Part shown: positions 1 through 54,974 of the stretch, one piece after another
Layout of the letters: each line of letters begins with the position of its first letter
Numbering within the stretch: position 1 is the first letter of the stretch
Assembly: GCA_041651055.1 (NCBI GenBank)
Contig: JBAZJW010000001.1
Location: forward strand, 306,661 to 370,660
DNA length: 64,000 nt
Source: Minisyncoccota bacterium
GTDB taxonomy: Bacteria; Patescibacteriota; Minisyncoccia; Phycocordibacterales; UBA5272
Reading direction: 5' to 3'
Notes under the pieces: model-generated
Database searches by the model: none
What the model was told of the DNA's origin: nothing
The model's input: the letters and a program-made list of their open reading frames with translations, nothing else
Made by a program: the position numbers and the translations under genes

Positions 1-3000
1 GAAATCTGAGATAGCACGACCGAGTGCTCGTCCTTCTCCTGTCATCTTCATTGCATATCCTGGCATTGTCTTTGATACCGTAAGGAAATCTCCACGCTTT
101 ACTTCGCCGTTTTCTGTTGTAACCTTCACAGGAATACGTCCAGAGAATGCAACCGGTACACCGTCACGTGTATCACCACCAAGTGTAATACCTGCCTTTG
201 TAGAAATAACTCCGATGGCTTCATAGTCTGTGAGCGCCTTACGTACACCTGAGATATCGTACATTTCGGTTGTCGTACTTGTGTTACTTATCTGACCCCA
301 TGCGACGGTCGATGTACCGAATGCCACCACAGTACCCGCATCCACCGCTTCGAGTGCTGGATAATTTTCTGCTAAGTCGGCAGGCGTACCGATAGTTGTA
401 CCACCATCGGTGAACACATCTCCATCTGAATCAATACGGAACTTCACGTTTGATGCACCTCCAACATCTGAAAGAAGTCTGAAGATATCTACGTTCGATG
501 TCGATGTCGCAGAGTATGCATCGAGAACAGAAAGTGGTGTCGCCATGTTGATACCTACACGTGGATACTGTACTGCGGCGTAGCCGTTTGATTCACCATA
601 TACCGTAAGAACACTGGTACCTGCGATTGCTGCTGAATAACTCTCTACGGTACCTGTCGCTGCATTCAATATTGGAAGATCGGTCCACTGTACTATACCA
701 GCATCAGTGTCGAATGAAAGGTTTCCAAGTTCGAGGTTCGAAATTGACGTGACTGATGTAGAAGCATTGTAGAAAAGTCCACCTGAACCGATATTTACGT
801 TACCAGCAAATGTCGATGTCGCTGTACTTGAAGCCGCAGTGAAGAGGTTCGCATATACTTCACCAGCCTGACCAGCGTATGTGGTGGTGCCGAAGAGAAG
901 TGCGCCGAGTTGATTCATCATCATGAGTGATGAGCCGGTCGATGATGCGATGTTGAATGGATTCGTTCCTCCGACACCTTGAACGAAGAGTGATGTCGTT
1001 GGGGTGGTGGTTCCGATACCAATATTTCCTGCGATAAGTGTACCCGTAATACTTCCCTGCGAACCATTTCCGAGTCCTAAGACCCCAGCGGAGATACGTG
1101 AAAAACCAGTATCGCTATTTTCAGGGTTTGTATCTGGACTCCATGACAACACACCAAGAGCCGCGACACCGTGAGATAAGGATGTTGTTTTTATCCAAGC
1201 ATTAGAAGCAGAGTTAAGAAATCGCAGAGAGTTTATCGAGGGTTGTATCGTACCACTTGCAGAAGCACCAGATATATCAATCTTAAGAGATCCACCGCTC
1301 CCAGAAGCAACTATGTCACCACCAACGGAAAGTTTAAAGCTCGGTGTCGATGACCCGATTCCCACATTTCCATTTCCCAAAATCGTCATTGCAGTATTGA
1401 ACGCATTTTGGAATGTGCCTGAGGTACTACTTGCGGCGGCTGTCTGGAATATGAATGCTCCACCGAGACCTGTGCCTGTTCCGGCTGATGCTTTGAAAGT
1501 CGTACTTGTACCTGCAGTGTTCGTTGTTCCTGCAACAACGGACTGCACACTAAATGTCTGTGCAACTGGTGAAGCTGCATCAGCACCTCCAAGCTGGAGA
1601 TTGGCGGCTGCTTTACGAGAAAGAAACAAGTCTGGAGTACTCACAGCATCTAGACCACTTGACCAACTATATGAATAGTTGCTTGGAACAGATATATTCG
1701 AATACTTCCAAACCAATAGTTTTCCCTTAACCCCAGCCCCGTCATCTCCAAAAAAGCCAGTATAAGCATTAGCAATTCCGGTTATGTAATGTGGGCCTCC
1801 AGAAATAATCAATGAACTTGGAGATGAAATACTTCCAGTAGGAACAGTCATAGCACCGTCCTTTCGTACACTGAACTTACTAACTCCACCAACCTGCAAA
1901 TCAACTAAATTAGATGCAGCCAAACTCGCTGTATCGGTAATATTCATCGTAAGACCAGACATTGTAGACCCTGACTGATTCCACGTCTGTGCGAGATTAA
2001 CCAATGAACTCGTCGCTGTGACCGTACCACCATTCACAGAGAGTGGAGATACTGGGCTTGTCGTACCGATACCAACATACCCACCAGCACTTGCGAGAAT
2101 AGTTTGACCTGTGACAGTGAGAGCTGTAGACGAAGCAAGAGCTAACGTTGCATCCCCTGTTACATTAAGTGTCCCTGTCGCGGTAAGATTGTGCGTTGAG
2201 AAATCTGTGACAAGTGTCATGAAGGTGCTCGACGCATACGCATTCGTCACGCCTGAACCCGCTACGATAGTACTCCACAGTGTTGATGTGCCCGTACTTA
2301 CAAGAGCCTGTCCTGATGTGCCTGTAGCATTCGTACTATCGCGGAACCAACCAGAGAGATTAAGATTTGTGGATGTTGAGTTTGTAAACAATGAAGAAGG
2401 TGCGTTGACGGTACCTGTAGCTGTCACATTCCCCGCGAAGTATGAATCTCCGTTTACAGCAAGCTTGGCAGTAAACGTAGTCGTGCCAAGTCCGAGATTT
2501 CCATTAATATCAAATCTTGCTTTTTCTATTCTATTAATACCGAAAAGAATATTATGATACGAAGCTATACCTGTGTCGTTTGCATTATATCCTTCCAATA
2601 CCACGTTCCCTGTCGAGTTACCTGTGAGAGCTTGGAATGTAATACCGTTACCTGTTCCACCCATAAGGCTTTCATTTGTAACTCTAAGAGCACCCGTTTG
2701 GGATGTTGATGGGTAAATATCTATTCCGTATTGATTATCTCTAATTTTTGAGTTACCTACCACGATGCTTGCCGTACCAGCGCCACCGATAGCAGCAGCT
2801 GAGGCATCTGACATAAGTAAAACTTTACCTGTTGTCGTTCCTGCACGAACAGTACCAAAAACATCAAGCGCGTATCCTGGTGTCGATGATCCGATTCCTA
2901 CATTTCCATTCGCAAGCACATTAAATATCGATGTTGATGTAGCAATACTAAAGAGGTTCGAGGTGCCTGTTGCTGTGGATGAAGAAACGGAAAGAAGGGA

Positions 3001-6000
3001 GAGTGGTGTGGTGGTGCCGATACCGACGTTGCCTCTTGTACCACCAAGAATAATATTCCCTGATATGCCTGTTCCGTACCCAAGACCACCATCTAAAGTA
3101 ATATTGCCTCCACTCGCAAGACCTGCTGATCCAGATGAACCATTACCACCAGTGAGTGTAAGGATACCTCCTGTGATATTTGTTACGGCGTCCGGGGAAG
3201 CGTTACCACCGTGAAGGGTGAGTGAGGTCACTGCGTCTTGTCCACTTCCTAAGTTAGCTCCACGAACAGTCAATTTTGCAGAAGGCCCGTCGGTATCATT
3301 TCCAGAAATCACAGCATTAGCATAATAAGCTCGTATTGGTTTATAGAACTTAATTTGATTATCACCTGAACCAAAATTAATAACATTCCCATCTGTATTT
3401 GTAATCAATAGCCCATTCGTAGAAGAATTAAGTGCTCCCGGAATTGTTGGTCGCCCATCTTTTCTTACACTAAACTTACTAATTCCGCCAACCTGCAAAT
3501 CAACTAAATTAGAGGCAGTTAAACTGGCAGTATCTGTAATATTCATCGTAAGACCAGAAAAGGTTGATCCTGACTGGTTCCACGTCTGCACTAAATTCAC
3601 CAATGAACTTGTCGCAGTAACGGTTCCACCGTTAATAGAAAGTGAAGACGCAGGACTCGTGGTACCAATACCAACGTATCCATTATCAAGAACCGTAAGT
3701 CCTGGGATATTTGTACTTCCTGTTGTCTGGAACGCAATACCCGTGCCAGTGCCTGCACCTTTAACACCAAGACGTGCATATGGGGTAGAGGTACCGACAC
3801 CGAGATTGCCCGTACTAGTCACACGCATCGACTCTCGTGCGGTATAACCAACTTGTGATCTAAAGACCATGTCGCCACCAGACCAATAGTTATCAAAAAA
3901 AGTAGTGCCATTTGGCGCATCATAATAAAACTTAAATCCTTCATTAAAAGCGCCTCCACTAAAACCGTTTGATGAAGTAATACCGATAGAAGCAATATCG
4001 TTATTACCAAGACCTTTAAGCACAAGGCTTGGCGCACTTGAAGTAATCTGAAGATCAGCCCCGGGTGCTGTTGTACCAATCCCCACTCTCCCTCCCGCTG
4101 TCGCAAGATACGTACCACCTGTGACAGTGAGTCCTGTTGAGCTTGCGGTAGCGAGTGTACTCTGACCATTTACGTTAAAAGTTCCTGTGAATATTCCATT
4201 TGTTCCTGTGAAGCCTGTTGACGAAAGGTTCGTTGTAGACGCATTTGTAATCGTTGCATTTGTAGAAAAGAGTGATGCGAGGGTAGCTCCTGTTGCAGAG
4301 AGGTTTGTGGTAGATGCATTACCTAACGTAGTCTGACCAGAGATATTGAGTGTCCCTGTCGCAGTGACGTTACCCGCGAAGTATGAGTTGCCATTAACTG
4401 CGAACATTGCTGCGGGAGTGGTGGTGCCGATACCGACATACCCAGAAGTACCATTAATACGCATCGCTTCAGTACCATCAGCTTTGTTTATCATTGTGTT
4501 ACCTGTTGTTCCTAGGAACGTAGTGTCTGGTAATCCAGGTTCGAGAATCACATTTCCACCATTATATGCAGAACCTGATCTTGCAAGGTTATCCCCTCCT
4601 TTGACCAGTACGTGTCCGTTCGATTTATTTGTATATCCTGTAACCAAAAGAGCAGGATTATCATACCCTGCGGAAATAGAGCTCCCAGCAAAACCCTTTA
4701 CCGTTGCTGTATTTAACCACATAAAAGGGTTTGCTCCTCCGGCTGAAAAACCAAGAGTTCCAGCGTATCCGAAAAGCAAACTAACACTATTCCCAAGAAT
4801 ACTATTTGCACCAATATTAAGATTTCCATCTAACTTGGTATCACCAACAACATGAAGCTTTGAACTTGGTGTCGATGTTCCTATCCCCACATTCCCTCCC
4901 GCGGTTGCAAGTGTCGTCGTGCCTGTTGTATTGAAAAGCGTAGCGTAGAGGTTTGTTGCAGTGAATCCGGTTGAAGATGCGTTCGAGAGCGTGGTTTGAC
5001 CAGCGATGTTAAACGTGCCTGTTGCTGTCACATTACCCGCGAAGTATGAGTCTCCATTTACCGCGAACTTAGTGGTAGGAGAACTAGTGCCAATACCTAC
5101 ATTTCCTCTTGTTGTCGCAAGGAGAACGTTTCCTGCAATACCTGCATTCACAGGAGCTCCACCATCTAGGTAAATATTTCCACCATTTCTTGCTGTAGCA
5201 CCGGCATCCGATGAAGCACCACCGATGAGAAGCATATCTCTACCTGCCGCTGAATATGTTCCGTATTCACCAATACTCGTCGGACGAATAGTAAATGTTC
5301 CTGCAGTACTTCCAGCGCTTGGTCCTCCAGATAAAATAGAAGATCCTCCATTATTTATTTGAACGACTCCACTGGTACTATTTGGTGCAATACTAATATC
5401 TGTACCACTTCCACCTCCAAAACTCATTGTTCCACGCAAATCTCCTGTCGTCTGGTAGTAATCCTTAATCGAATTTCCGTTAATAGTAAGAAAATGATTT
5501 GACGGAGCCCCACTAAATGTAGCAATTCCTGCAGAACTTACTTTGAACATGCTAGATCCACCACTGTTTACATCGAACAATGCTGAAGGTGTAGATGTTC
5601 CCACTCCCACATTTCCTCCCGCAGTTGCAAGTGTCGTTGTACCTGTTGTATTGAAAAGCGTAGCGTAGAGGTTTGTTGCAGTGAGTCCTGTCGTTGATGC
5701 ATTCGTCAAAGTTGCAGACGTCGCAGACAAAGTGCCGACTGTCGCAGACGTGGAATATAAGTTCGTAAGTGTTGCTCCTGTTGCGCTTAAGTTCGTAGTT
5801 GACGCATTCGTAATCGTTGCATTTGTAGAGAAGAGTGATGCGAGTGTCGCTCCTGTTGCAGAAAGGTTTGTTGTAGAAGCGTTCGCAAGTGTCGTCTGAC
5901 CTGTTACGTTAAGTGTGCCTGTCGCTGTTACATTTCCTGCGAAGTATGAGTTACCGTTGACTGCGAACATCGCAGCAGGAGTAGTGGTACCGATGCCGAC

Positions 6001-9000
6001 ATTGCCACTATTTATAGACATCGTATTTATTAAACCAGTTGCAGAACCAGTATAGAAATCCATTCTTGCTGGACCTCCATTACCAGCAATTGCATTACCG
6101 TTTTGAACAACATCAATGACAGCTTGGTTATATAATGCCCCCGCCGTATTTACTCCAGAAAAACCAATCTGCCCTAAACCCTCTCCGTTTAAAGTTGTTG
6201 CTAAAGTTCCACTTACGTCTGAATGAGATTTTCCGAGAGTGATTCCTCCAGCCCCTTGCCAATTAGAATATGTACTAGAATAAGATATTGCTCGTAGTTG
6301 TGCAGAACTACCAGTAACACTACCAGTACCAGCTACATCTAGCTTAACACCAGGATTCGTTGTCCCGATGCCGACATTGCCTGTAAAATAGCTTCCATCT
6401 TTGTCTATGTACAGTTTTTCGGCGGCAGTATCATAACCACCCCCTCGTAAACTGATCGAACCCGTACTATTGCTAGCCGAAGCTGCATTTGAAAATACAA
6501 CAATACCATTTGCCCCATCGGGACCAAACGCAGCCTTGCTTGCTAGAGAGGCGACACCGAATGATGACCCGTATGCTCTAAAAAAACCGCCAACGGAACC
6601 ACTATAAGCCCCTACCGTTGCAGAATTTGAATTACTTGTACTATTAACTCGAATTGTACTATTAATCCCTGAACCATCGCCAGTGACTTCCAGTTTACCG
6701 TTTACTGGGTTTGTCGTTCCGATACCAACATTACCGTTGGAAATTATTCTCATCGCTTCAACACCATTGTTTGGAAAGAATCCAATTGAGGCACTAGCAC
6801 CGGCTCTGAGTTCCATAAGACTAGCGCTCATTCCAATACCATAATTATTTACTGGATTCCCATCGTTATACATGGTCCATTTGAGATTGGCAGGGCTTCC
6901 TGGAGTGCTATTGCCGTATGTACCTCCAAACGATACATTTAAAGGAGAAGCTGTGCTCTGACTAACATTTTTTCCAAAAATTGTATCTCCATTCGCAAGT
7001 ACATTAAATATCGGAGAGGTTGTCGAGTTGAAAGAAATAAACGGTGAAGCAAGTGATGTCGATGACGCCATGACGGAGAGCATTGCTATTGGAGAAGTCG
7101 TCCCCACTCCCACATTTCCATTCGAAGCAATAGTCATACGCTCGACACTCGATGTTACGAAGCGTAGATAATCATCCACACCTGCGGTGATGTATGTCGT
7201 CTGCGCTGGATTGATCACACCACCTAGACCTTGCCACACAGCATTGTCCCCGTATCCTTCGAACTGATGCGTAGTGACGTTGTAACGAACCTGTCCCGTG
7301 CCGGCTAATGATGGACGCTGTACCGTTGTACCTACAGGAAGACGAAGTGCATCGGTACCATAAATATCTACGATAGACGCAGGTGTCGCAGTCCCAATAC
7401 CGAGACGTGTGTTTGTATTATCCCAGAAGAAGTTCGCATTATTTTGTGAAAGCTTACCTCCTGTGCTGATGAATGGAATAGAGCCAGAGGTGAGTGCTGA
7501 GAAGTATGAGTCACCAGAGGTAGTAACATTCGTAGTGGATGCGTTGGTGGTCGTAAGACCACCAACGAACGCATTTGTAAGTGTCGCACCTGTCGCACTC
7601 AAGTTCGTAGTAGACGCATTTGTAATCGTTGCATTTGTAGAGAAGAGTGATGCGAGAGTGGCACCTGTTGCAGAGAGGTTCGTAGTAGACGCATTCGTAA
7701 ATGTCACATTCGTTGCAGTAAGTCCTCCGAAGAATCCATTCGTGAAGTTGAGCCCTGAACCAGAGATGTTCGTAGTAGAAGCATTTGTTACAGTAAGTGC
7801 TGAGAGGAATGCGTTTGTTGCAAAGAGTCCTGAAGCAGAGAGGTTCGTGGTGGATGCATTTAGGATTGTAGCTGTACCTGTAGTGTTCGTATTTCCGAAT
7901 ACTGCGCCAGTTGCACTGATGTTCGTTGTCGATGCATTTCCAAGTGTTGTCTGACCCGTAACTGTTAGATTAGAAATCGTTGTCGTTGCTAAAGTTGAAG
8001 TTCCTGTTACAGCAAGTAGCGTTGTGGTAGCGTTCGTAAGTGTTGCGTTTGTAGAGAACAGGGATGTAAGCGTAGCTCCTGTGGCTGAGAGATTCGTAGT
8101 CGATGCATTTCCAAGTGTGGTCTGACCGGTTACGTTAAGTGTACCGTTCGAAGCAAGAGATGATGTCGCGGTGATATTTCCAGCAGTGAAAGAGTTGAAG
8201 GTTGCAGTGATTGCATTTAATATCGTTGCGAAGAAGTTTGATGATGTCGCATTCACAAGTGTCGAACTTGCTGATGTAAAGCCAGTCGCTGAGAGGTTGG
8301 TCGTACTAGCATTCGTAATCGTTGCAGTACCTGTCGTGTTTGTATTTGTAAACGTTGCCCCTGTTGCGGAGAGGTTGGTCGTCGATGCACTTGTGGTGAT
8401 GAGCGAAGTAATAGAACCGTTTGTAGAAGAAATGTTTGTCGATGTAGAATATGTTGCGAGCAAATTCGTCGTATAGAGTGATGTCGCAGTCAGTCCTGTT
8501 GTCGATGCATTCGTAAGATTCGCAGCAATTGCATACAGTGTGTTTGCAGTAAGTGCTGATGATGATGCAGTGGAAAGTGTTGTCTGCCCCGTAACACCAA
8601 GTGTCCCCGTGAAGTTCGCAGCACTTGAAATAGTCTGTCCATTGATAAGGCCAGTAGTGAGGGCTCCAGATCCGAGATCAACAGCACCTACGAATGTGTT
8701 TGTCGCACCAAAAGTAAGACGAGTAGTCCCTGTGGAATCTTTGATAGCATTGCCATTTAATTGAAGCTTGTCATCTACGACAAGCGTATCGGTATTGATA
8801 TTGAAAATCGCATTCTGAATACCGAGAGATGCCTGAATCGTTGTATCACCTTCTGCATCCACTCGGAAACGCTCGACACCATTCACACCGACACCGAGAA
8901 GTGTACTGTTTGTGGAGCCTGACCCTGGATTAATATAAAGACTTCCTTGTCCGAGACCTGTACCGAGTGGTGTGCCAGTGAGTGTAAGCATCCCCGCAAT

Positions 9001-12000
9001 ACTTGATGTTGCAGTACCAGCGACGTTAATTGAATTCGCGAAATTAACTTTGAAGTTATTGAACTCAAACTGTGAAAGTGTAGAATTCCATTTAAGAACG
9101 GCGTTTGGTGTAGCAATACCTCGAGAAAATTCTAACGTTGAATCCTGTGTATCATTGGTGAAATTACCTGTATTAATAATAAAGGTTGATGACGCTGTAC
9201 CACCTGCCACAAGGTTCGAAATTGTCGTCGTTGCAGCATAAATATTTCCAAAACGGAAAGTCGGAGATCCGAGGTCTGCACCAAGGTCTGTTGAAGGCAA
9301 AATTGTCGAAGCGATTTTACCATTAATAGTCACCGTGTCAGCTGAGCTATCCCCCAAGATTGTATTACCATTTGTTGTGAGATTTCCAGAGAAAAGGTTC
9401 GTACCTGTTGTGTTCGTTGAATTAAATGTTCCGACAATTTGCACGTCGCCTTCTGCATCGATACGAGCCTTTTCAGCACCGGCAACCGAAAGACCGAGGA
9501 GAACATTGTTTGTTCCTGCTGATGTTGGATTGACATACACGGTCCCCTGATTGATTCCTGTTCCGAATGGCACAGCAAGGAACTGAATCTGACCATTTGT
9601 GATAGATGATGTGAGCGATCCTGCAACATTAAGAGACCCCCCAATGTACACATTACCAGATGTCTCAATAACACCAGGAGCTGTCGTAGCCACCCCGACA
9701 CCGAAGCCTCCAGAAATATATCCGTTCGTTGCTTTTATATCACTTGAAAAAAGATTTGTCGTCGTTGCATTACCTCCAACAAATGTATTGGTGTAAAGAT
9801 TCGTCGATGTCGCATTCGTAATGATCGCATTTGTTGTCGTGCTGTTACCAACGATGAGGTCTGTAATACGTGCAAGTGTGGACCAGAGGTTTGAGAAGAA
9901 GCCGTTGGTGGATGTGGCACTAGTTGCGGTGAAGCTTGTGGCTGTTGTTGTGGCGAAAGTTGAGGTGCCGACGACAACCACTTGTCCATTTACGTTAAGT
10001 GTTCCGCCTCCGATAACAAGTTTGTCGATGTATGCGTTTGTCGTTGTGGCGTTCGTTGTAGAAGCGTTCACGGCAACGAGATTTGTGGTCGTACCATTTG
10101 CTACCGTAAGGTTTGTCGTTGAGGCAGTACTAGCAGAGAGATTCGTCACAGTTGTGGTTGCAAGCGTTGATGTTCCAACGACGACCACTTGTCCATTTAC
10201 GTTAAGTGTTCCGCCACCAATGACGAGGTTATTGATATATGCGTTTGTTGTCGTGCTGTTCGTTACGATTGCATTTGTTGTTGTACTGTTTGTTACTTCG
10301 AGACCAACAATTGCAGCGAGCGCTGAAAAGAAATTAGTTGTTGTTGCGTTTGTTCCAAAAAGATTCGAAGCAAACAGATTCGTCGATGTCGCATTCGTAA
10401 TGATCGCATTTGTTGTCGTACTGTTACCAACGATGAGGTCTGTGATACGTGCAAGTGTGGACCAGAGGTTTGAGAAGAAGCCGTTGGTGGATGTGGCATT
10501 GTTTGCAGTGAAGCTTGTGGCTGTTGTGGTGGCAAAAGTTGAGGTGCCGACTACGACAAGCTCACCATTTACCGTCACATTACCATTTGATGTAGATGAT
10601 CCAACGACAAGGTTCTGAACATATGCGTTCGTCGTTGTACTGTTCGTCACGATCGCATTTGTGGTCGTTGAATTTCCGATGATGAGGTCAGTTATATTTG
10701 CGAGCGTGGACCAAAGATTTGCAAAGAAACCATTGGTGGATGTCGCGTTTGTTGTAATACTATTTGTTGCAAAAAAATTAGTACTTGAGGCGTTCGTTGT
10801 GGATGCGTTTGTCGCTGCAAGATTTGTGGTTGTAGCACTTGTCGCAATAAGGTTTGTTGTTGTTGCAACGTCGGCAGTAAAGCTTGTCACCGTCGTAGTG
10901 GCAAGCGTTGAAGATCCATATACAACAAGCCCACCATTTACCGTCACATTACCGTTTGATGTCGATGAACCATTTGTAATATATGACCCAACGACAAGAT
11001 TTTGTATGAAGGCATTTGTTGCGGTTGCATTGTCCACCAAGAATCTTGTAGCCGAAACATCTGTGAGAGTAGAGCTTGCAGCGGAAAGATTGGTGATATA
11101 TGCATTTGTTGTCGTGCTGTTTCCAAATGTAGAAGAGCTTGCCGTGAGTGTGTTCGCCGAAACTCCTGCACTAAATGATGCTGACCCTGTAAAGACGTTA
11201 GAACCACTGAATGCCACACCATTTAAGGTTGCATTCGCAAGGTACATATTTGACGATGTGCCATAGTTGAAATTCGCATATTCGATTGTCGTATCGCGAA
11301 GGTATCCAATAGTTGAAACACCGATGAGGCTCTGTGCGAAATATGGCGTCGATGATTGATTAACTGTGGTAGGCGTGATGAATCCACCGAACGATGTTGG
11401 TAAAGAAGGATTTGAAGCACTCTGTCCATCACGACCATCTCGCCCGTTTGCTCCAGCAGGACCGGCAACCGGCACATACTCAGTAATATACTTCGTGAGA
11501 TATATAGGTGAAGCGGCGGGAGTTGTTTTTATGGTAGCTGATGTAACAGATGAAGAAGGAGTGCTTACAGTAGGTGTAGTGACGGCCGGAGCGACTGCGA
11601 CAGTGTTTGTTGTGTTCGTAGATGGAGAAAGCAGTCCTGATGCAAGAATGGTGTAATTACAGCGCTTCTGATCAAGAGTTGATGAAAGAGAGGAAAGTTT
11701 ACAGTAGAGAGAGAGTGAGAGTTGGTCAAGGAAAGGGAGGTTTTTCTTTTGCTGCGCAAGACCACTTGGAGTTTGTGAGGTAAAGGCACCAAGCACTACA
11801 CCTTGATTCTGCGCATGTGGCAGCAATTCAATTTGTGCAAGACGTGGAAGATGAGTGTTCACACTTGATGCATATGTTGCCACTGTTTCTTTACTAAAGA
11901 TTTCTCCATGAAGCGTACCTACGATGTACGAAGTGAGTGTATGCACAAATGGAAGAGCGAGAGGAGTTCCAGCAACACCAACCTCACGAGGAGTCGCACC

Positions 12001-12432
12001 TGAGATAACGAGCTTATTTTCTGAAATAGGAGAAAGGGTTATTGAGTTGAGTGCTTTCGTATAAGTCACCTCCATAGCCAAAACAATGTTTTGTAGAGAA
12101 GATGGTGTAAATGAAAGATTCGGTACGTTTATTTTTTGAATAGCCAGAGGTTCGCTGTAGGCAATCTTTGGGATCGTTGCGAGAGATTGTGAGGCAAGTA
12201 ATTTTGGAAGTGTGTGTGCAAAAGAAAATGAAGTGTGTGCAAGTTTCGAAACAGTAAACGGTCGAGAACGAAGTGTAAGGATAAGTGATGAAAGAGGTCT
12301 TGCTTGTGAAAATGTGTATTGTGTGTCCTTTGTGTCAGCTGCTTTTGCAGGAGAAAAAGAGACGAAGAAGAAAGCGAGAGAGAGTACTGCGAAGACAAGT
12401 TTTTGGAATGTGCGACTACTAAGATCTTGCAT
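1..12432 (-). CDS. Giant secreted repeat protein (tail-fibre-like, beta-helical adhesin-like). It is 5' complete and 3' truncated by the window edge, with at least 4,144 aa in the window.
   Basis: The minus-strand ATG at 12432 (the revcomp of cat 12430-12432) opens MQDLSSRTFQKLVFAVLSLAFFFVSFSPAKA/ADTKDT, a signal peptide. The frame was hand-translated at 12432, 11475, 8709, 4440 and 1371 (all codon tops are congruent to 0 mod 3) with no stops. The track lists no complete ORF starting at 12432, which implies there is no in-frame stop before position 1. Recurrent motifs include YVGIGTTTP (4440-4418) and GNVGIGSSTPSFKLSVGG (1371-1320). There are long T/N/S/A 9-residue periodic repeats and a collagen-like GPAGANGRDGRDGQ stretch (11475-11434). 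Confidence 0.8.
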   Translation of the reverse strand, partial: MQDLSSRTFQKLVFAVLSLAFFFVSFSPAKAADTKDTQYTFSQARPLSSLILTLRSRPFTVSKLAHTSFSFAHTLPKLLASQSLATIPKIAYSEPLAIQKINVPNLSFTPSSLQNIVLAMEVTYTKALNSITLSPISENKLVISGATPREVGVAGTPLALPFVHTLTSYIVGTLHGEIFSKETVATYASSVNTHLPRLAQIELLPHAQNQGVVLGAFTSQTPSGLAQQKKNLPFLDQLSLSLYCKLSSLSSTLDQKRCNYTILASGLLSPSTNTTNTVAVAPAVTTPTVSTPSSSVTSATIKTTPAASPIYLTKYITEYVPVAGPAGANGRDGRDGQSASNPSLPTSFGGFITPTTVNQSSTPYFAQSLIGVSTIGYLRDTTIEYANFNYGTSSNMYLANATLNGVAFSGSNVFTGSASFSAGVSANTLTASSSTFGNSTTTNAYITNLSAASSTLTDVSATRFLVDNATATNAFIQNLVVGSYITNGSSTSNGNVTVNGGLVVYGSSTLATTTVTSFTADVATTTNLIATSATTTNLAATNASTTNASSTNFFATNSITTNATSTNGFFANLWSTLANITDLIIGNSTTTNAIVTNSTTTNAYVQNLVVGSSTSNGNVTVNGELVVVGTSTFATTTATSFTANNATSTNGFFSNLWSTLARITDLIVGNSTTTNAIITNATSTNLFASNLFGTNATTTNFFSALAAIVGLEVTNSTTTNAIVTNSTTTNAYINNLVIGGGTLNVNGQVVVVGTSTLATTTVTNLSASTASTTNLTVANGTTTNLVAVNASTTNATTTNAYIDKLVIGGGTLNVNGQVVVVGTSTFATTTATSFTATSATSTNGFFSNLWSTLARITDLIVGNSTTTNAIITNATSTNLYTNTFVGGNATTTNLFSSDIKATNGYISGGFGVGVATTAPGVIETSGNVYIGGSLNVAGSLTSSITNGQIQFLAVPFGTGINQGTVYVNPTSAGTNNVLLGLSVAGAEKARIDAEGDVQIVGTFNSTNTTGTNLFSGNLTTNGNTILGDSSADTVTINGKIASTILPSTDLGADLGSPTFRFGNIYAATTTISNLVAGGTASSTFIINTGNFTNDTQDSTLEFSRGIATPNAVLKWNSTLSQFEFNNFKVNFANSINVAGTATSSIAGMLTLTGTPLGTGLGQGSLYINPGSGSTNSTLLGVGVNGVERFRVDAEGDTTIQASLGIQNAIFNINTDTLVVDDKLQLNGNAIKDSTGTTRLTFGATNTFVGAVDLGSGALTTGLINGQTISSAANFTGTLGVTGQTTLSTASSSALTANTLYAIAANLTNASTTGLTATSLYTTNLLATYSTSTNISSTNGSITSLITTSASTTNLSATGATFTNTNTTGTATITNASTTNLSATGFTSASSTLVNATSSNFFATILNAITATFNSFTAGNITATSSLASNGTLNVTGQTTLGNASTTNLSATGATLTSLFSTNATLTNATTTLLAVTGTSTLATTTISNLTVTGQTTLGNASTTNISATGAVFGNTNTTGTATILNASTTNLSASGLFATNAFLSALTVTNASTTNISGSGLNFTNGFFGGLTATNVTFTNASTTNLSATGATLASLFSTNATITNASTTNLSATGATLTNAFVGGLTTTNASTTNVTTSGDSYFSALTSGSIPFISTGGKLSQNNANFFWDNTNTRLGIGTATPASIVDIYGTDALRLPVGTTVQRPSLAGTGQVRYNVTTHQFEGYGDNAVWQGLGGVINPAQTTYITAGVDDYLRFVTSSVERMTIASNGNVGVGTTSPIAMLSVMASSTSLASPFISFNSTTSPIFNVLANGDTIFGKNVSQSTASPLNVSFGGTYGNSTPGSPANLKWTMYNDGNPVNNYGIGMSASLMELRAGASASIGFFPNNGVEAMRIISNGNVGIGTTNPVNGKLEVTGDGSGINSTIRVNSTSNSNSATVGAYSGSVGGFFRAYGSSFGVASLASKAAFGPDGANGIVVFSNAASASNSTGSISLRGGGYDTAAEKLYIDKDGSYFTGNVGIGTTNPGVKLDVAGTGSVTGSSAQLRAISYSSTYSNWQGAGGITLGKSHSDVSGTLATTLNGEGLGQIGFSGVNTAGALYNQAVIDVVQNGNAIAGNGGPARMDFYTGSATGLINTMSINSGNVGIGTTTPAAMFAVNGNSYFAGNVTATGTLNVTGQTTLANASTTNLSATGATLASLFSTNATITNASTTNLSATGATLTNLYSTSATVGTLSATSATLTNASTTGLTATNLYATLFNTTGTTTLATAGGNVGVGTSTPSALFDVNSGGSSMFKVSSAGIATFSGAPSNHFLTINGNSIKDYYQTTGDLRGTMSFGGGSGTDISIAPNSTSGVVQINNGGSSILSGGPSAGSTAGTFTIRPTSIGEYGTYSAAGRDMLLIGGASSDAGATARNGGNIYLDGGAPVNAGIAGNVLLATTRGNVGIGTSSPTTKFAVNGDSYFAGNVTATGTFNIAGQTTLSNASSTGFTATNLYATLFNTTGTTTLATAGGNVGIGTSTPSSKLHVVGDTKLDGNLNIGANSILGNSVSLLFGYAGTLGFSAGGANPFMWLNTATVKGFAGSSISAGYDNPALLVTGYTNKSNGHVLVKGGDNLARSGSAYNGGNVILEPGLPDTTFLGTTGNTMINKADGTEAMRINGTSGYVGIGTTTPAAMFAVNGNSYFAGNVTATGTLNISGQTTLGNASTTNLSATGATLASLFSTNATITNASTTNLSSTGFTGTNGIFTGTFNVNGQSTLATASSTGLTVTGGTYLATAGGRVGIGTTAPGADLQITSSAPSLVLKGLGNNDIASIGITSSNGFSGGAFNEGFKFYYDAPNGTTFFDNYWSGGDMVFRSQVGYTARESMRVTSTGNLGVGTSTPYARLGVKGAGTGTGIAFQTTGSTNIPGLTVLDNGYVGIGTTSPASSLSINGGTVTATSSLVNLVQTWNQSGSTFSGLTMNITDTASLTASNLVDLQVGGISKFSVRKDGRPTIPGALNSSTNGLLITNTDGNVINFGSGDNQIKFYKPIRAYYANAVISGNDTDGPSAKLTVRGANLGSGQDAVTSLTLHGGNASPDAVTNITGGILTLTGGNGSSGSAGLASGGNITLDGGLGYGTGISGNIILGGTRGNVGIGTTTPLSLLSVSSSTATGTSNLFSIATSTSIFNVLANGNVGIGSSTPGYALDVFGTVRAGTTTGKVLLMSDASAAAIGGAGTASIVVGNSKIRDNQYGIDIYPSTSQTGALRVTNESLMGGTGNGITFQALTGNSTGNVVLEGYNANDTGIASYHNILFGINRIEKARFDINGNLGLGTTTFTAKLAVNGDSYFAGNVTATGTVNAPSSLFTNSTSTNLNLSGWFRDSTNATGTSGQALVSTGTSTLWSTIVAGSGVTNAYASSTFMTLVTDFSTHNLTATGTLNVTGDATLALASSTALTVTGQTILASAGGYVGIGTTSPVSPLSVNGGTVTATSSLVNLAQTWNQSGSTMSGLTMNITDTASLAASNLVDLQVGGVSKFSVRKDGAMTVPTGSISSPSSLIISGGPHYITGIANAYTGFFGDDGAGVKGKLLVWKYSNISVPSNYSYSWSSGLDAVSTPDLFLSRKAAANLQLGGADAASPVAQTFSVQSVVAGTTNTAGTSTTFKASAGTGTGLGGAFIFQTAAASSTSGTFQNAFNTAMTILGNGNVGIGSSTPSFKLSVGGDIVASGSGGSLKIDISGASASGTIQPSINSLRFLNSASNAWIKTTSLSHGVAALGVLSWSPDTNPENSDTGFSRISAGVLGLGNGSQGSITGTLIAGNIGIGTTTPTTSLFVQGVGGTNPFNIASSTGSSLMMMNQLGALLFGTTTYAGQAGEVYANLFTAASSTATSTFAGNVNIGSGGLFYNASTSVTSISNLELGNLSFDTDAGIVQWTDLPILNAATGTVESYSAAIAGTSVLTVYGESNGYAAVQYPRVGINMATPLSVLDAYSATSTSNVDIFRLLSDVGGASNVKFRIDSDGDVFTDGGTTIGTPADLAENYPALEAVDAGTVVAFGTSTVAWGQISNTSTTTEMYDISGVRKALTDYEAIGVISTKAGITLGGDTRDGVPVAFSGRIPVKVTTENGEVKRGDFLTVSKTMPGYAMKMTGEGRALGRAISDF
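9797..10590. repeat. Near-identical ~200-bp direct repeats inside the giant gene, with units starting at 9797 and 10377 (period about 579 bp). A ~50-bp sub-repeat is duplicated at 9965 and 10172, and a diverged third copy lies near 10661.
   Basis: Direct comparison of 9797-10010 with 10377-10590 shows only a few mismatches. Antisense ORF 9821..10618 contains MIAFVVVLLPTMRSVIRASVDQRFEKKPLVDVAL twice and VPTTTTCPFTLSVPPP twice. Confidence 0.8.
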
Positions 12433-12436
12433 GTAG

Positions 12437-12721
12437 ATTGATACTTATTAGTATAGTAAAAGTGGTGTATAAGTACAGCACAAAGTGGTACTTATCTGTG
12501 GATAAAGTACAAATTAAAATCCCTTATTCTAAAACGTTAAAATAGAAAATTTGCAGGTAAAATTTTTACTTGATAATTAAAAATTTTTAGTGAAATATAA
12601 GTCCTCTATTTCAACACACTTTTAGTAATGATAAAAGCAAAAATTAACCATTTCTTCTACACATTATGTAGGTCTTAGGGTTTTTAATTAAAAATTATCT
12701 ATAAGGGTTCTCCTTATAGAT
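12437..12721 (-). promoter_or_regulatory. AT-rich upstream region of the giant gene, the presumed promoter and leader.
   Basis: This is 285 bp of A/T-rich non-coding sequence between the rnhB stop and the giant-gene ATG, both on the minus strand. No specific boxes were assigned. Confidence 0.3.
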
Positions 12722-51276: not shown

Positions 51277-52290
51277 TTACAGGCTTTCATGTATCTTTTC
51301 ATTATACCTTCCCACCTCGTCTCTACCAAATAATGCCCACGTAAATAGTTTCTCCTGGTGAGAGAGTTCATTCTTAACAAAATCAAGAGACTCTTTATTA
51401 TACCCAACAGGTATATTCCTCTTGGCAACGGCAAGCATTTCAAGTAAAGTTTCGTCATTTGAAACTAATTCTTTAATTTCATCACGATGAAACCCTTCTC
51501 CGGCGAAGTACTCTGCGACCATTGATCTCGCTGTCTCATCAAGACCCAAACCAGACACCCTGGAAAACTCTTCCATAAATTCATACGCAAATAGTCGCCC
51601 TTCTTCATACTCCATAGGAGATCCAATTAAACCAAAAGACATGCCTGATTCTGGGTCCACTTCTTCAAACACCGGAGAGGTTACCTCTCCTTTACGTGCT
51701 AAATATTCACTATAAATTGCATCAGTAATCAGTTCAGTCAATCCTTCATTGAGGTCATTAAACTCTCTACCAACAATCTCTTCCTTATTGGTAAGCTTTT
51801 TTGAAAAAAGATTAGTCACACCCGTTAGTTTCATTTCGTGACTTAAAGAGAAAAATTTAGAAGATGCTATATGAAGAGACTCATGTATACTCGCAGACAA
51901 CAACCTTCCTTTATCAACCGACCCCTTATCGTAAAATGATCGTGCATAAAAATAAATAGATTTTCCGTCTGTTGCTGCTAAAGCGTCGACTATCTGTGAT
52001 TCTTGAGAAAAATGGACACCCTCTCTCTTCTTTGGCTCTTGATAAGAAATTGTATAATCCACTACAATTGAAGGACGATAAACATCATCGAGCACTTGTC
52101 GAACATCCTCTTGTTTTATTTCTGGAAATGATTTTCTATACAATTCAGAAATGATATCCCCAATGAGGTTAAAATCAATTTCTCTCTCAAGAACCTCCTT
52201 AACTTCACTTATTCTTTCGTTCCAGACAAGCTCTTCTTGAGATAAAGATTCTTGTGTGAGTGCAGACTGAGAATAAGGAGGGTGTTCCAT
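51277..52290 (-). CDS. Hypothetical protein with an HExxH motif (HESLH) embedded in the pentose-phosphate operon.
   Basis: SIHESLHIASS is a zincin-like HExxH motif. No other family signature was seen. Confidence 0.45.
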   Translation of the reverse strand: MEHPPYSQSALTQESLSQEELVWNERISEVKEVLEREIDFNLIGDIISELYRKSFPEIKQEDVRQVLDDVYRPSIVVDYTISYQEPKKREGVHFSQESQIVDALAATDGKSIYFYARSFYDKGSVDKGRLLSASIHESLHIASSKFFSLSHEMKLTGVTNLFSKKLTNKEEIVGREFNDLNEGLTELITDAIYSEYLARKGEVTSPVFEEVDPESGMSFGLIGSPMEYEEGRLFAYEFMEEFSRVSGLGLDETARSMVAEYFAGEGFHRDEIKELVSNDETLLEMLAVAKRNIPVGYNKESLDFVKNELSHQEKLFTWALFGRDEVGRYNEKIHESL

Positions 52291-54089: not shown

Positions 54090-54974
54090 CTATCTGCGTC
54101 CGTCGGGAACATCATCTTCACCATCTTCCTGACCATTAACATCTTTAAGGTCACGAACTTCAGTGTTTACCTTAAGGGTACTAGTTGCCCTGTTTTCGTT
54201 TTTTATTTCTAGTTTTACACCCACCTTGTTCTCAGATTCTTTATTTGAGTCCACAGAATCTGTATCTTCTACATCTTCTGTATCCTCATTTTCGGATTCC
54301 ATCGTATCTTTCTCTTGATCTTCTTTTGACATTTCTTCTTCTATGCTTCTTTTTTCATCTTGGAAAGATTTTTTTATTTCATCTTTTTTATCCTTAAAAT
54401 CTTCCGCTGATTTCTTGGCATCTTCTAAAGCTTTTTCGGCGTCAGTTATTTTAGCCTCATCTTTTGTCACTTTAGCTTCTTCTAGAAGTTTTTTAAAGGA
54501 CTCGATTTTCACATCGACAATTTCTTTGTGAGCATCTGAAAGAGATTTCGAAAGATCACTTTCTTCTGAATCAAATTCATCATTGGCCTCTTTGGCTAAT
54601 TTTGTGACATCGTTTCCTGCGGCTTTTTCTGTCTTAATAATCTCTGCTGTTTTTTGTACAGTATCTATAATACTTGTATGCACACTATCTAAACCTTTTG
54701 AGTGATCACCAGATTCTGCAAGCATAGCCTTTGCTTCCGCAACACGCTCAGCCACGAAAGCTATTTGAAGTTTTACTTTAGCTTCCGGAGTAAATGCAAA
54801 AAGTTCCTGCAAAGATTCTGTTAGTTTATCGAAAAAATAAAAAGAACTTTCTGGAGTAAGTCCAGCTGAAGCAGAAACATTAGACGAAGAAACTGGAGTT
54901 GTTGTACTTGTTTGAGCAAAAGCAAAGGACACTGCTGCCCCAAACAATAACACTGATGATAGTATTTTTTTCAT
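54090..54974 (-). CDS. Secreted acidic coiled-coil-like hypothetical protein.
   Basis: It has a signal peptide, MKKILSSVLLFGAAVSFAFA, and a K/E/D-rich low-complexity C-terminal half. Confidence 0.55.
   Translation of the reverse strand: MKKILSSVLLFGAAVSFAFAQTSTTTPVSSSNVSASAGLTPESSFYFFDKLTESLQELFAFTPEAKVKLQIAFVAERVAEAKAMLAESGDHSKGLDSVHTSIIDTVQKTAEIIKTEKAAGNDVTKLAKEANDEFDSEESDLSKSLSDAHKEIVDVKIESFKKLLEEAKVTKDEAKITDAEKALEDAKKSAEDFKDKKDEIKKSFQDEKRSIEEEMSKEDQEKDTMESENEDTEDVEDTDSVDSNKESENKVGVKLEIKNENRATSTLKVNTEVRDLKDVNGQEDGEDDVPDGRR

What the first reader, a model, noticed from the sequence alone, without database searches (positions are those of the whole stretch)
1..12432. A hidden giant gene encodes a tail-fibre-like, collagen-containing secreted repeat protein of more than 4,100 aa
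The ORF track suggests 12 kb of short junk ORFs, but it omits ORFs truncated by the window edge. The minus strand, starting at ATG 12432, is one continuous frame. Hand translation at 12432, 11475, 8709, 4440 and 1371 is in phase (codon tops congruent to 0 mod 3) and stop-free. Any in-frame stop would have produced a listed ORF starting at 12432, and none is listed. The N-terminus, MQDLSSRTFQKLVFAVLSLAFFFVSFSPAKA, is a signal peptide. The body carries dozens of G-N/Y-V-G-I-G-T-T/S-x-P motifs, 9-residue T/N/S/A-rich periodic repeats (beta-helix/beta-roll-like) and a GPAGANGRDGRDGQ collagen-like stretch. This combination is established for phage tail fibres and for giant adhesins. The inferred role is a cell-surface attachment fibre, which would be useful to an episymbiont or a lineage with a small genome. 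All listed + ORFs here are in a single frame and are antisense shadows.
Basis: partly seen in the sequence, partly recalled or inferred. Interest (0 to 1): 0.8.

Follow-up and report, generated by a model that had tools for sequence, protein, structure and literature searches.

The report
Giant phage-tail-fibre-like surface fibre, CPR bacterium
A tiny-genome bacterium (Candidatus Paceibacterota) spends 13 kb on one secreted 4,335-residue protein, built like a phage tail fibre and ending in a phage-phi29-type folding domain predicted to cut itself off, so it is most likely a long surface fibre for gripping a host cell.

Summary
The hidden ORF is real. The minus strand from ATG 12432 to base 1 is 4,144 codons with no stop, and the full product (P0183) is 4,335 aa. 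The genome is a Candidatus Paceibacterota (CPR) chromosome, and the window holds no phage genes.

Layout of the protein:
- a signal-peptide-like N-terminus;
- a lineage-specific N-region with a short conserved collagen-like stretch (5 G-X-Y triplets);
- T/N/S/A-rich regions with a 5-residue period (not 9);
- about 2,200 aa of fibre body with 18 GNVGIGTT.P units, homologous to crystallised Bdellovibrio MAT surface fibres (profile E=1.9e-30 to Bd2133) and to phage tail-fibre families;

The giant's A-D-L-A-E motif aligns on gp12's S691|D692 cleavage site. This module defines a family of about 24,800 cluster representatives, mostly CPR, many 2,000-7,800 aa and mostly signal-peptide-bearing.

Trimeric assembly, self-cleavage, surface display and host binding are inferred, not shown. 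I found no paper linking CPR to this fibre type. Verdict: observation confirmed, interpretation supported, a new variant of a known kind.

The parts
1..12432 (-). Coding sequence of the giant fibre protein: codons 1-4144 of 4335. The last 191 codons lie beyond window base 1.
   Evidence: 0 stops in 4,144 codons. Full-length P0183 is identical over the window part. Gene called as 4,335 aa on the source contig.
12340..12432 (-). Signal-peptide-like N-terminus, aa 1-31 (MQDLSSRTFQKLVFAVLSLAFFFVSFSPAKA|AD).
   Evidence: Only segment with 19-residue hydropathy above 1.6 in the window-encoded 4,144 aa. It has K/R residues before the hydrophobic stretch and A-x-A before the predicted cut. 59 of 81 long family members have a similar N-terminus. 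No SignalP run was available.
11464..12339 (-). Lineage-specific N-terminal region, aa 32-323, with the conserved Cys pair C244/C258. Candidate cell-proximal anchor (inferred).
   Evidence: Only one homologue among the 8,000 candidates scored from the 5.8-billion-cluster database: P0052 at the syntenic locus, 45% identity over aa 194-398. No Pfam or PHROG hit.
11419..11463 (-). Short collagen-like stretch, aa 324-338 (GPA GAN GRD GRD GQS). Possible trimer-registering element (inferred).
   Evidence: Only G-X-Y run longer than 3 triplets. Conserved as GPAGRDGTDGKDGVDG in P0052. No Pfam Collagen hit.
9613..11145 (-). T/N/S/A-rich region I with 5-residue periodicity, aa ~430-940. Almost free of charged residues.
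   Evidence: Autocorrelation peaks at multiples of 5. Composition table. Internal paralogy. phrog_12216 match.
8653..9612 (-). Intermediate beta-rich region, aa 941-1260, containing a diverged internal duplication (aa 933-999 and 1134-1199).
   Evidence: Self-comparison. No family hit.
7471..8652 (-). T/N/S/A-rich region II with 5-residue (and 25-residue) periodicity, aa ~1261-1654.
   Evidence: Autocorrelation. phrog_6005 'virion structural protein' E=4.7e-12. Weak resemblance to a pentapeptide-repeat protein, 5dra, E=0.64.
943..7470 (-). MAT-type / tail-fibre-type fibre body, aa 1655-3830. It has 18 units marked by [VIL]-G-[IVL]-G-[TS]-x-x-[PF] (GNVGIGTT.P..L.V), spaced 42-237 aa apart, interspersed with short period-5 stretches.
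   Evidence: 18 motif copies against about 0 in shuffles. PHROG tail-fibre families phrog_9942 and phrog_18345, E 1e-12 to 8e-15. Profile A4 against PDB: Bd2133 1.9e-30, Bd1334 4.6e-17, Bd3182 1.9e-14, Bd2439 8e-10. The giant segment alone against Bd2133, E=6e-5. Foldseek top hits are MAT fibres.
403..942 (-). Region just before the chaperone, aa 3831-4010. Predicted distal tip of the mature fibre (inferred).
   Evidence: Conserved in other proteins, where it is followed either by the gp12-like module or by Peptidase_S74 (P0033, P0034, P0037).
1..402 (-). First 134 residues (aa 4011-4144) of the C-terminal phi29-gp12-like auto-chaperone module. The module runs to aa ~4239 outside the window and is followed by a 96-aa P/V/D/T-rich tail.
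367..381 (-). A4018-D4019-L-A-E4022, the motif aligned on the phi29 gp12 autocleavage site S691|D692-F-A-E695. Predicted self-cleavage between A4018 and D4019 (inferred).
   Evidence: hhalign alignment. Chain 3GQH_A starts at D692. The Glu is invariant and the motif nearly universal across 71 loci.
12433..12721 (-). AT-rich 289-nt spacer upstream of the gene. It holds a terminator-like hairpin directly after RNase HII (12697-12721) and sequence conserved with the orthologous locus next to the start codon. Probably the gene's own promoter region (inferred).
   Evidence: Terminator scan. Upstream conservation with L083. GC 0.37 here against about 0.45 in the gene.

Best explanation
This is one chromosomal gene of a Candidatus Paceibacterota (CPR/Patescibacteria) bacterium. 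It encodes a 4,335-aa exported protein built from phage-receptor-binding-fibre parts.

Shown here:
- an intact ORF;
- a signal-peptide-like N-terminus;
- a fibre body of about 2,200 aa homologous to the Bdellovibrio 'mosaic adhesive trimer' (MAT) surface fibres and to phage tail-fibre families;
- a C-terminal module with the fold and cleavage-site motif of the phage phi29 gp12 intramolecular chaperone.

Inferred mechanism:
1. The chain is exported through Sec.
2. Three chains are brought into register by the C-terminal gp12-like module, possibly helped by the short N-terminal collagen-like stretch.
3. The chains fold into an intertwined trimeric beta-helical fibre. Scaling from Bd2133 (370 aa span 142 A) gives a length of the order of 100-150 nm, comparable to the cell itself.
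4. The chaperone module then cuts itself off between A4018 and D4019. This exposes the region before it (aa ~3830-4018) as the distal tip.
5. The lineage-specific N-terminal region holds the fibre on the cell.

The most likely role is recognising and tethering the host or partner cell of this episymbiont. It may work together with the secreted triple-lectin protein whose gene starts 4 nt downstream.
For: ORF and completeness.
Organism and context: RNase HII and DnaE are exact matches to MFA5132028/9, 'Candidatus Paceibacterota bacterium'. All other window genes that matched a family are housekeeping.
Export: an N-terminal hydrophobic segment. Only 4 Cys in 4,335 aa, in two conserved pairs. 73% of long family members have a signal-peptide-like start, against 13% of short S74-type fibre homologues.
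Fibre body: PHROG tail-fibre hits. Profile hits to the Bd2133, Bd1334, Bd3182 and Bd2439 crystal-structure sequences, E 1.9e-30 to 8e-10, through the same repeating unit. The giant's own segment hits Bd2133 at E=6e-5 as the only PDB hit. Foldseek ranks MAT fibres first, then T4 gp34 and T5 pb1. Homologues of the body carry Peptidase_S74, Phage_T4_gp36 and K1-lyase_C domains.
Known biology: gp12 is a homotrimer whose IMC domain is absent from the virion (PMC9863714). MAT fibres are trimeric, displayed on the predator surface and bind prey glycans (PMC10769870).
Family: 24,847 representatives, many giant, overwhelmingly in CPR genomes.
Against: No experiment or expression data exist for this protein.
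- Trimerisation could not be modelled. Only monomer AF2 was available, and the body model is weak (mean pLDDT 62).
- The chaperone fold was modelled on P0001 (75% identical in the module), not on the giant itself.
- Pfam PF11962 is not reached by the giant's own window-encoded fragment nor by its complete C-terminal 335 aa. It is only sub-threshold in relatives.
- Some family members have G instead of D in the motif.
- No cell-anchoring motif was recognised: no LPXTG and no second hydrophobic segment in the window-encoded part. The proline-rich C-terminal tail could itself be wall-associated, which would reverse the proposed polarity.
- The N-terminal domain shows no detectable similarity to anything except one orthologue.
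Confidence: 0.72

Rival explanations
1. It is a phage or prophage tail fibre (a virion part) that happens to sit in the chromosome, not a cellular surface structure.
For: The body and the C-terminal module are both phage-type. The module also occurs in virion structural proteins of PA5oct-like jumbo phages. An IS200-like ORF lies two genes downstream.
Against: No capsid, portal, terminase, tail or integrase gene was found among the window ORFs scanned or in the 8 kb downstream. The neighbours are RNase HII, DnaE, L32, NusB and RNase III, in conserved synteny with a relative. The protein has a signal-peptide-like N-terminus, which virion proteins assembled in the cytoplasm do not need. 73% of long family members share that feature. 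At 4,335 aa it is several times longer than the 400-900-aa fibre homologues recovered here.
Confidence: 0.05
2. It is a structural envelope or matrix protein (an S-layer-like or glycosylated coat component, or a cell-cell tether within the same species) rather than a host-recognition adhesin. The gp12-like module would then be a permanent trimerisation or foot domain that is not cleaved.
For: The composition is extremely rich in T, S, N, A and G. N-x-S/T sequons are enriched: 132 observed against 103 +/- 8 in shuffles. The proline-rich C-terminal tail resembles wall-spanning segments. The module's fold is shared with uncleaved capsid-decoration proteins. A close relative does without the fibre body.
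Against: The closest characterised homologues are adhesive MAT fibres with variable tips (PMC10769870). The gp12 cleavage motif is conserved, with an invariant Glu. Size and module content vary strongly between relatives, as expected for a host-range determinant rather than a core envelope part.
Confidence: 0.18
3. The ORF is an assembly artefact or a decaying pseudogene whose length is inflated by mis-joined repeats.
For: It comes from a short-read metagenome assembly (contig name k141_...). The gene is internally repetitive. The syntenic gene in a relative is only 475 aa.
Against: There are no stops in 13,005 nt, while the other frames have 77-349 stops over 12.4 kb. Repeats are diverged (at most 92% over at most 231 nt), below what collapses assemblies. 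The module order is coherent: signal peptide, N-domain, body, chaperone, tail. That order is shared by many independent giants of 2,000-7,800 aa. The protein is recorded on at least 2 contigs.
Confidence: 0.04

Closest known systems
Bdellovibrio bacteriovorus mosaic adhesive trimer (MAT) fibres: Bd2133, Bd1334, Bd3182, Bd2439 (Caulton et al. 2024, PMC10769870; PDB 8OND, 8OML, 8ONC, 8OL4)
   Same: Both are cellular, signal-peptide-bearing, phage-tail-fibre-like proteins. The body is homologous, with the same repeating unit '..ermrI..sGNVGIGT..P..kL.V.G' (profile E=1.9e-30, single sequence E=6e-5), and MAT fibres are the top fold matches. Both have mosaic, swappable C-terminal ends. Both occur in bacteria that live on other bacteria.
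   Different: This protein is about 4 times longer (4,335 against ~1,000 aa). Its C-terminus is a phi29-gp12/Peptidase_G2-type module, whereas MATs end in S74 or an adhesive tip domain. Its N-terminal region has no detectable similarity to anything but one orthologue, so the conserved ~130-aa MAT N-domain is not evident. It adds about 1,200 aa of 5-residue-periodic T/N-rich sequence and a short collagen-like stretch. The host is a CPR bacterium, and no CPR organism appears in the supplementary files of the MAT paper that I could search.
Phage phi29 gp12 pre-neck appendage (tailspike) and its C-terminal auto-chaperone (PDB 3GQH, 3SUC; MEROPS/Pfam Peptidase_G2, PF11962)
   Different: The giant does not reach the Pfam threshold. 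The module carries an extra conserved extension of about 100 aa ('TTGN.DLNANGVAI.NIKSLASANGTWSIDENGRI..K.LCLEDVCI') and a proline-rich tail that gp12 lacks. The part upstream is a MAT-type fibre, not gp12's enzymatic beta-helix. It is a cellular exported protein, not a virion part. Cleavage and any ATP dependence are untested.
Phage tail fibres and endosialidases with a Peptidase_S74 intramolecular chaperone (T5 pb1, K1F; PF13884)
   Same: The fibre-body units are the same: many body homologues of 400-900 aa end in S74. The overall logic is also the same, with a C-terminal chaperone at the end of a beta-helical fibre. The giant's region just before the chaperone occurs elsewhere fused to S74.
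   Different: No S74 domain or SD..K motif region was detected in the giant. The chaperone is of the unrelated gp12 type.
Giant surface proteins of CPR bacteria (Vampirococcus lugosii, PMC8080830; Strigamonas, PMC13059738)
   Same: These are very large (1,392-4,163 aa) envelope-targeted proteins in small CPR genomes, proposed to mediate host recognition and attachment.
   Different: The proteins described there carry WD40, TPR, PKD, FN3, RTX-like adhesin, integrin or concanavalin domains. Neither paper mentions fibres ('fiber'/'fibre' absent from both), and neither came up in the library search for Peptidase_G2, pre-neck appendage, intramolecular chaperone or tailspike.

Membership tests
MAT (mosaic adhesive trimer) fibre superfamily (PMC10769870) | N-terminal signal peptide | tested here: met
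   K/R residues, a hydrophobic stretch of about 18 residues and AKA|A. It is the only strongly hydrophobic segment in the window-encoded part. This is a heuristic; SignalP was not available.
MAT (mosaic adhesive trimer) fibre superfamily (PMC10769870) | [quoted passage not shown] | tested here: not met
   A search with aa 1-400 against 5.8 billion clusters returned a single protein, the syntenic orthologue P0052, and no Bdellovibrio protein. This holds at sequence level only; fold-level similarity was not tested.
MAT (mosaic adhesive trimer) fibre superfamily (PMC10769870) | Fibre body homologous to the crystallised beta-helix/prism regions, with recurring capping-loop motif | tested here: met
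   Profile A4 hits Bd2133 1.9e-30, Bd1334 4.6e-17, Bd3182 1.9e-14 and Bd2439 8e-10. The giant segment alone hits Bd2133 at 6e-5. There are 18 motif copies. The paper's printed consensus V-G-G/N-pi-x-x-P-x-x-x-L has 0 literal matches, but the aligned Bd2133 units (GNLGLGTAAP, GNVGIGATAP) have the same spacing as the giant's.
MAT (mosaic adhesive trimer) fibre superfamily (PMC10769870) | Intertwined homotrimer | not testable with these tools
   Only monomer AF2 was available. The monomer body model is weak (pLDDT 62), as expected for an obligate trimer but not proof of one.
MAT (mosaic adhesive trimer) fibre superfamily (PMC10769870) | Display on the cell surface and binding of partner-cell epitopes | not testable with these tools
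   This requires microscopy or biochemistry.
Peptidase_G2 / phi29 gp12 C-terminal auto-chaperone (PF11962; PDB 3GQH) | Match to the Pfam model at its gathering threshold | tested here: not met
   No hit for the giant's window-encoded pieces or for its complete C-terminal 335 aa. 8 of 33 homologues hit PF11962 below threshold, best E=8.2e-4.
Peptidase_G2 / phi29 gp12 C-terminal auto-chaperone (PF11962; PDB 3GQH) | Fold of the gp12 C-terminal fragment | tested here: met
Peptidase_G2 / phi29 gp12 C-terminal auto-chaperone (PF11962; PDB 3GQH) | Cleavage-site motif (gp12 S691|D692-F-A-E695) at the start of the domain | tested here: met
   hhalign (92.9%, E=3.7e-7, 93 columns) places A4018-D-L-A-E4022 on S-D-F-A-E. 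3GQH_A begins at D692. The motif is present in 71 of 78 relatives' loci, and the Glu is invariant in A5.
Peptidase_G2 / phi29 gp12 C-terminal auto-chaperone (PF11962; PDB 3GQH) | Autocatalytic release of the domain after trimer assembly | not testable with these tools
   This needs expression of the fragment and of site mutants.
Peptidase_S74 intramolecular chaperone (PF13884) | S74 domain with SD..K catalytic motif at the C-terminus | tested here: not met
   No PF13884 hit in the whole protein, in ten overlapping pieces or in the complete C-terminal 335 aa. It is present in 9 of 33 relatives, at other positions.
Collagen triple-helix repeat (PF01391) | Extended run of G-X-Y triplets | tested here: not met
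   One run of 5 triplets (aa 324-338), and all others are 3 or fewer. No Pfam Collagen hit at E<=1. The short run is conserved in P0052 with 6 triplets.
Pentapeptide-repeat proteins (PF00805 and relatives) | Tandem 5-residue repeats matching the A(D/N)LXX family models | tested here: not met
   The 5-residue periodicity is real, but there is no Pentapeptide Pfam hit at E<=1. There is only a chance-level PDB match to 5dra, E=0.64.
Phage virion tail fibre (gene of a phage or prophage) | Location among phage structural and morphogenesis genes | tested here: not met
   All neighbours that matched a family, across the 64-kb window and 8 kb downstream, are housekeeping genes in conserved synteny.

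The most novel reading that the evidence does not exclude
CPR/Patescibacteria as a group may have taken over the phage receptor-binding-fibre toolkit as their main apparatus for recognising host cells. The toolkit would be a MAT-type trimeric body plus a phi29-gp12-type self-cleaving chaperone. On this reading, the family of about 24,800 members defined by the C-terminal module, largely undetected by current domain models, sets which hosts each episymbiont can attach to. The fibres would evolve like phage host-range genes, by module duplication, tip or chaperone swapping and wholesale deletion: 4,335 aa here against a 475-aa remnant at the same locus in a relative. This particular fibre, of roughly 100-150 nm, would work with the co-transcribed triple-lectin protein.
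Probability: 0.3. Interest if true: 0.78.

Novelty: new variant of a known kind. Interest (0 to 1): 0.58.

Why it matters
How ultrasmall CPR bacteria find and hold their hosts is an open question. So far type IV pili and unnamed 'adhesins' are implicated (PMC10633639, PMC11665869).

This gene takes up about 2% of the bases assembled for this genome (13 kb against contigs of 559 and 775 kb). It points to a concrete, structurally interpretable candidate: a phage-style receptor-binding fibre with a predicted self-cleaving assembly domain.

The C-terminal module gives a simple search handle that picks out tens of thousands of such proteins. Some lie in genomes labelled Saccharimonadales, the order that holds the cultivated, genetically tractable Saccharibacteria. 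That makes host-range prediction and direct tests (cleavage mutants, fibre imaging, binding assays) feasible. It also extends the recently defined MAT fibre concept from predators to episymbionts, and adds a second, unrelated chaperone type to it.

Tried and rejected
- Whole-protein scans against Pfam, PHROGs, NCBIfam and PDB gave nothing. This was a composition and length artefact, because scanning pieces recovered the matches.
- The Peptidase_S74 expectation was rejected for this protein.
- A true collagen domain was rejected.
- The 9-residue repeat was rejected in favour of 5. Membership of the pentapeptide-repeat family was rejected.
- The strict literal MAT capping-loop regex gave 0 matches, and the direct alignments were more informative.
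- The genome-contig scan did not contain the source genome (best 75% identity), so the missing C-terminus could not be read there. It was later recovered as P0183 and L086.
- The search with the N-terminal 400 aa gave only one homologue, so that domain stays unassigned.
- The monomer AF2 model of the body was too weak (pLDDT 62) to interpret beyond its local fold matches.
- The prophage hypothesis was rejected on gene context.
- An exact look-up of the 466-aa tRNA-synthetase-like ORF failed, and Pfam was used instead.
- Literature searches found no paper linking CPR to MAT fibres or to gp12-type chaperones.
Full report
**Observation**

Translating the minus strand from ATG 12432 to window base 1 gives 4,144 codons without a stop. 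The other five frames carry 77-349 stops. In-frame stops lie just upstream of the ATG.

The window matches contig k141_1044737 of ENA assembly ERZ27247363 with 0 mismatches over 20,639 nt. The gene is called there as 4,335 aa. The full-length protein was recovered as P0183 and is identical over all 4,144 window-encoded residues. The window therefore lacks only the last 191 residues.

Internal DNA repeats are diverged, at most 92% over at most 231 nt, which argues against repeat-driven mis-assembly. All ten + strand ORFs of >=80 aa in the region share one frame, as expected for antisense shadows.

The GNVGIGT-type motif occurs 18 times, not dozens. The T/N-rich repeats have a period of 5 residues, with a 25-residue super-period, not 9.

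**Genome and context**

RNase HII and DnaE next to the gene are exact matches to NCBI proteins MFA5132028.1 and MFA5132029.1 of a 'Candidatus Paceibacterota bacterium' (Patescibacteria/CPR). The longest contig is 775 kb.

Every other window gene that matched a family is housekeeping: DnaE, SecG, RNase J, RNR, UvrABC, transketolase, GAPDH, a class II aminoacyl-tRNA synthetase and others. No phage genes were found.

A terminator-like hairpin follows RNase HII. The 289-nt AT-rich spacer before the start codon is partly conserved in a related genome. The gene therefore probably has its own promoter.

Downstream, outside the window, the next gene starts 4 nt after the stop. It encodes a 709-aa protein with a signal peptide and three tandem Laminin_G_3 (ConA-like lectin) domains (E=2.6e-71). 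An IS200-like ORF follows, and then synteny with the relative resumes at L32, NusB and RNase III.

**Anatomy of the protein**

| Residues | Feature | Evidence |
|---|---|---|
| 1-31 | Signal-peptide-like N-terminus; the only strongly hydrophobic segment in the window-encoded part | |
| 32-~400 | Lineage-specific region with one homologue, P0052 | |
| 324-338 | Collagen-like stretch, 5 G-X-Y triplets | |
| ~430-940 and ~1261-1654 | T/N/S/A-rich, nearly uncharged, 5-residue period; shorter stretches recur further along | |
| 1655-~3830 | Fibre body with 18 '..GNVGIGTT.P..L.V.G' units | |
| ~3831-4010 | Region before the chaperone; predicted distal tip | |
| 4011-~4239 | Conserved C-terminal module | |
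| last 96 | P/V/D/T-rich tail ending in 'TP' | |

P0052 is a 475-aa protein at the same syntenic position in GCA_021733405.1. It shares 45% identity over aa 194-398, including a conserved Cys pair and the collagen-like stretch: GPAGANGRDGRDGQ in the giant and GPAGRDGTDGKDGVDG in P0052.

Only four cysteines exist in the whole protein. They form two conserved pairs, C244/C258 and C4216/C4221. This fits an extracellular protein.

**What the body is**

Scans of the whole protein found nothing, because of its length and compositional bias. Scanned in pieces, the body matches PHROG 'tail fiber protein' families phrog_9942 and phrog_18345 (E down to 8e-15) and a virion structural family.

At least 1,281 homologues of aa 1655-2160 exist. 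The best 120 listed are 280-885 aa long, and about a quarter of them end in Peptidase_S74; others carry Phage_T4_gp36, K1-lyase_C or Shufflon_N domains.

A profile of these sequences hits the crystallised Bdellovibrio bacteriovorus MAT fibres as the only significant PDB sequences: Bd2133 at 1.9e-30, Bd1334 at 4.6e-17, Bd3182 at 1.9e-14 and Bd2439 at 8e-10. The alignments run through the same repeating unit. The giant's own 506-aa segment finds Bd2133 as its sole PDB hit, at E=6e-5.

A monomer AF2 model of the segment is weak (pLDDT 62). Its best fold matches are nevertheless the same MAT fibres, followed by T4 gp34 and T5 pb1 tail fibres.

MAT fibres are signal-peptide-bearing, intertwined trimeric beta-helical fibres. 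They are displayed on the predator's surface, have swappable C-terminal tips, and one of them binds prey glycans (PMC10769870).

**What the C-terminal module is**

It is absent from the giant. Four independent lines identify the module instead as the phi29 gp12 (pre-neck appendage) C-terminal auto-chaperone type, known as Peptidase_G2.

1. The module profile's top PDB sequence hit is 3GQH, at a marginal E=0.078.
2. hhalign of a 72-sequence module alignment against gp12 aa 661-854 gives 92.9% probability and E=3.7e-7. It places A4018-D-L-A-E4022 on gp12 S691-D692-F-A-E695. Chain 3GQH_A begins exactly at D692, which is the N-terminus of the released fragment.
3. 8 of 33 homologues hit PF11962 below threshold.

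The [GA]-[AS]-D-[LVIF]-A-E-x-[YF] motif is present in 71 of 78 related loci, and the Glu is invariant in the curated alignment. gp12 is a homotrimer whose intramolecular chaperone is absent from the mature virion (PMC9863714).

**The family**

The module profile finds 24,847 cluster representatives at E<=1e-3 and 14,614 at E<=1e-10, out of 1.84 billion.

In species-representative genomes, 183 stretches encode the module. Nearly all are in CPR lineages: Saccharibacteria, Paceibacterota, Nomura-, Gracili-, Levy-, Moranii-, Woese- and Doudnabacteria, WWE3 and others. A few carry Omnitrophota, Elusimicrobiota or Bdellovibrionales labels. Many of the open frames exceed 2,000-3,600 aa.

Of module-bearing proteins of at least 1,000 aa, 59 of 81 start with a signal-peptide-like segment. 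Only 14 of 107 of the short fibre-body homologues do. This supports a cellular, exported role for the long proteins.

The giant's region before the chaperone occurs in other proteins fused to S74 instead. Chaperones and tips therefore appear to be swapped, as in phage receptor-binding proteins and MATs.

**Mechanism**

Shown here:
- an intact exported-type ORF;
- homology of the body to trimeric MAT and tail-fibre beta-helices;
- the gp12-type fold and cleavage motif at the C-terminus.

Inferred:
1. The chain is exported through Sec.
2. The C-terminal module nucleates the trimer.
3. The chains fold into an extended fibre.
4. The module releases itself by cleavage at A4018|D4019.
5. The N-terminal region retains the fibre on the cell.
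6. The new distal end binds a partner cell, possibly together with the downstream triple-lectin protein.

Scaling from Bd2133, where 370 aa span 142 A (PMC10769870), gives roughly 90 nm for the MAT-type body. The total would be about 140 nm if the period-5 regions are similarly extended. This is an estimate only.

**Rivals**

| Rival | Main evidence against | Probability |
|---|---|---|
| Prophage tail fibre | Gene context and the signal peptide | about 0.05 |
| Structural envelope or matrix protein with an uncleaved foot domain | Not excluded; supported by composition, sequon enrichment, the proline-rich tail and the uncleaved decoration-protein relatives | about 0.18 |
| Assembly artefact or pseudogene | Intact frame, diverged repeats, and many independent giants with the same architecture | about 0.04 |

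**Novelty**

Large surface proteins in CPR are known (PMC8080830, PMC13059738). Phage-like MAT fibres are known in Bdellovibrio and were noted in a few other lineages (PMC10769870). I found no paper in the library linking CPR to MAT fibres or to a gp12-type chaperone, and the module is not captured at threshold by Pfam.

I therefore rate this a new variant of a known kind. It is a CPR giant version of the MAT / tail-fibre design, with a different chaperone and a different N-terminal domain.

Noticed in passing
L086:21013-23142 (source contig, 4 nt downstream of the giant gene; outside the window): A 709-aa protein with a clear signal peptide and three tandem Laminin_G_3 / ConA-like lectin domains (Pfam E=2.6e-71). 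It is probably co-transcribed with the fibre gene and may be a partner adhesin or tip-associated lectin.
   Followed up: partly
L083:10001-11560 (GCA_021733405.1, syntenic locus): The orthologous slot after RNase HII holds only a 475-aa protein (P0052) with the giant's N-terminal region, collagen-like stretch and a few period-5 repeats. Across its stop, the +1 frame reads 'TPEPTPEPTPTPEP...ASTTP**', which resembles the P/T-rich 'TP'-ending tail of the module family. It looks like a deletion remnant of a full fibre gene.
   Followed up: partly
L086:23233-23901: A 222-aa ORF with a borderline IS200-like Y1 transposase match (E=9.5e-5, 23.0 bits against a cutoff of 23) sits between the lectin gene and L32. 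The relative has a 23S_rRNA_IVP gene at that position instead, so this slot is a variable island.
   Followed up: no
window 1-12432 (-), whole protein: N-x-S/T sequons are enriched (132 against 103 +/- 8 in shuffles, maximum 129). Only four Cys occur in 4,335 aa, as two conserved pairs (C244/C258 and C4216/C4221 in 'CLEDVCI'). This hints at glycosylation and disulfides in an extracellular protein.
   Followed up: partly
window 403-942 (-), aa 3831-4010, compared with P0033, P0034 and P0037: The same region before the chaperone is followed by the gp12-like module in this protein and by a Peptidase_S74 domain in other proteins. Two unrelated intramolecular chaperones appear to be interchangeable on one fibre end.
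   Followed up: partly
L029, L033, L034, L040, L043 and others: Many loci carrying the module are labelled 'uncultured Bdellovibrionales' or 'Gammaproteobacteria' in one large MAG series. Whether these are true predators with gp12-type MAT fibres or mis-labelled CPR bins was not resolved.
   Followed up: no
window 12433-12470 (-) and L083:9960-10000: The 40 nt before the start codon are conserved between the two genomes ('TTTTACTATACTAA.TAGTATCAA..TAC ATGCAAGA'). They contain a TATACT box about 20 nt upstream and no obvious Shine-Dalgarno sequence, so the mRNA may have a short leader or none.
   Followed up: no
window 54090-54974 (-), 59937-61163 (-), 61234-62397 (-), 51277-52290 (-): One DUF5667 protein and three ORFs of 337-408 aa with no Pfam match lie among the housekeeping genes. 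They were not examined further.
   Followed up: no
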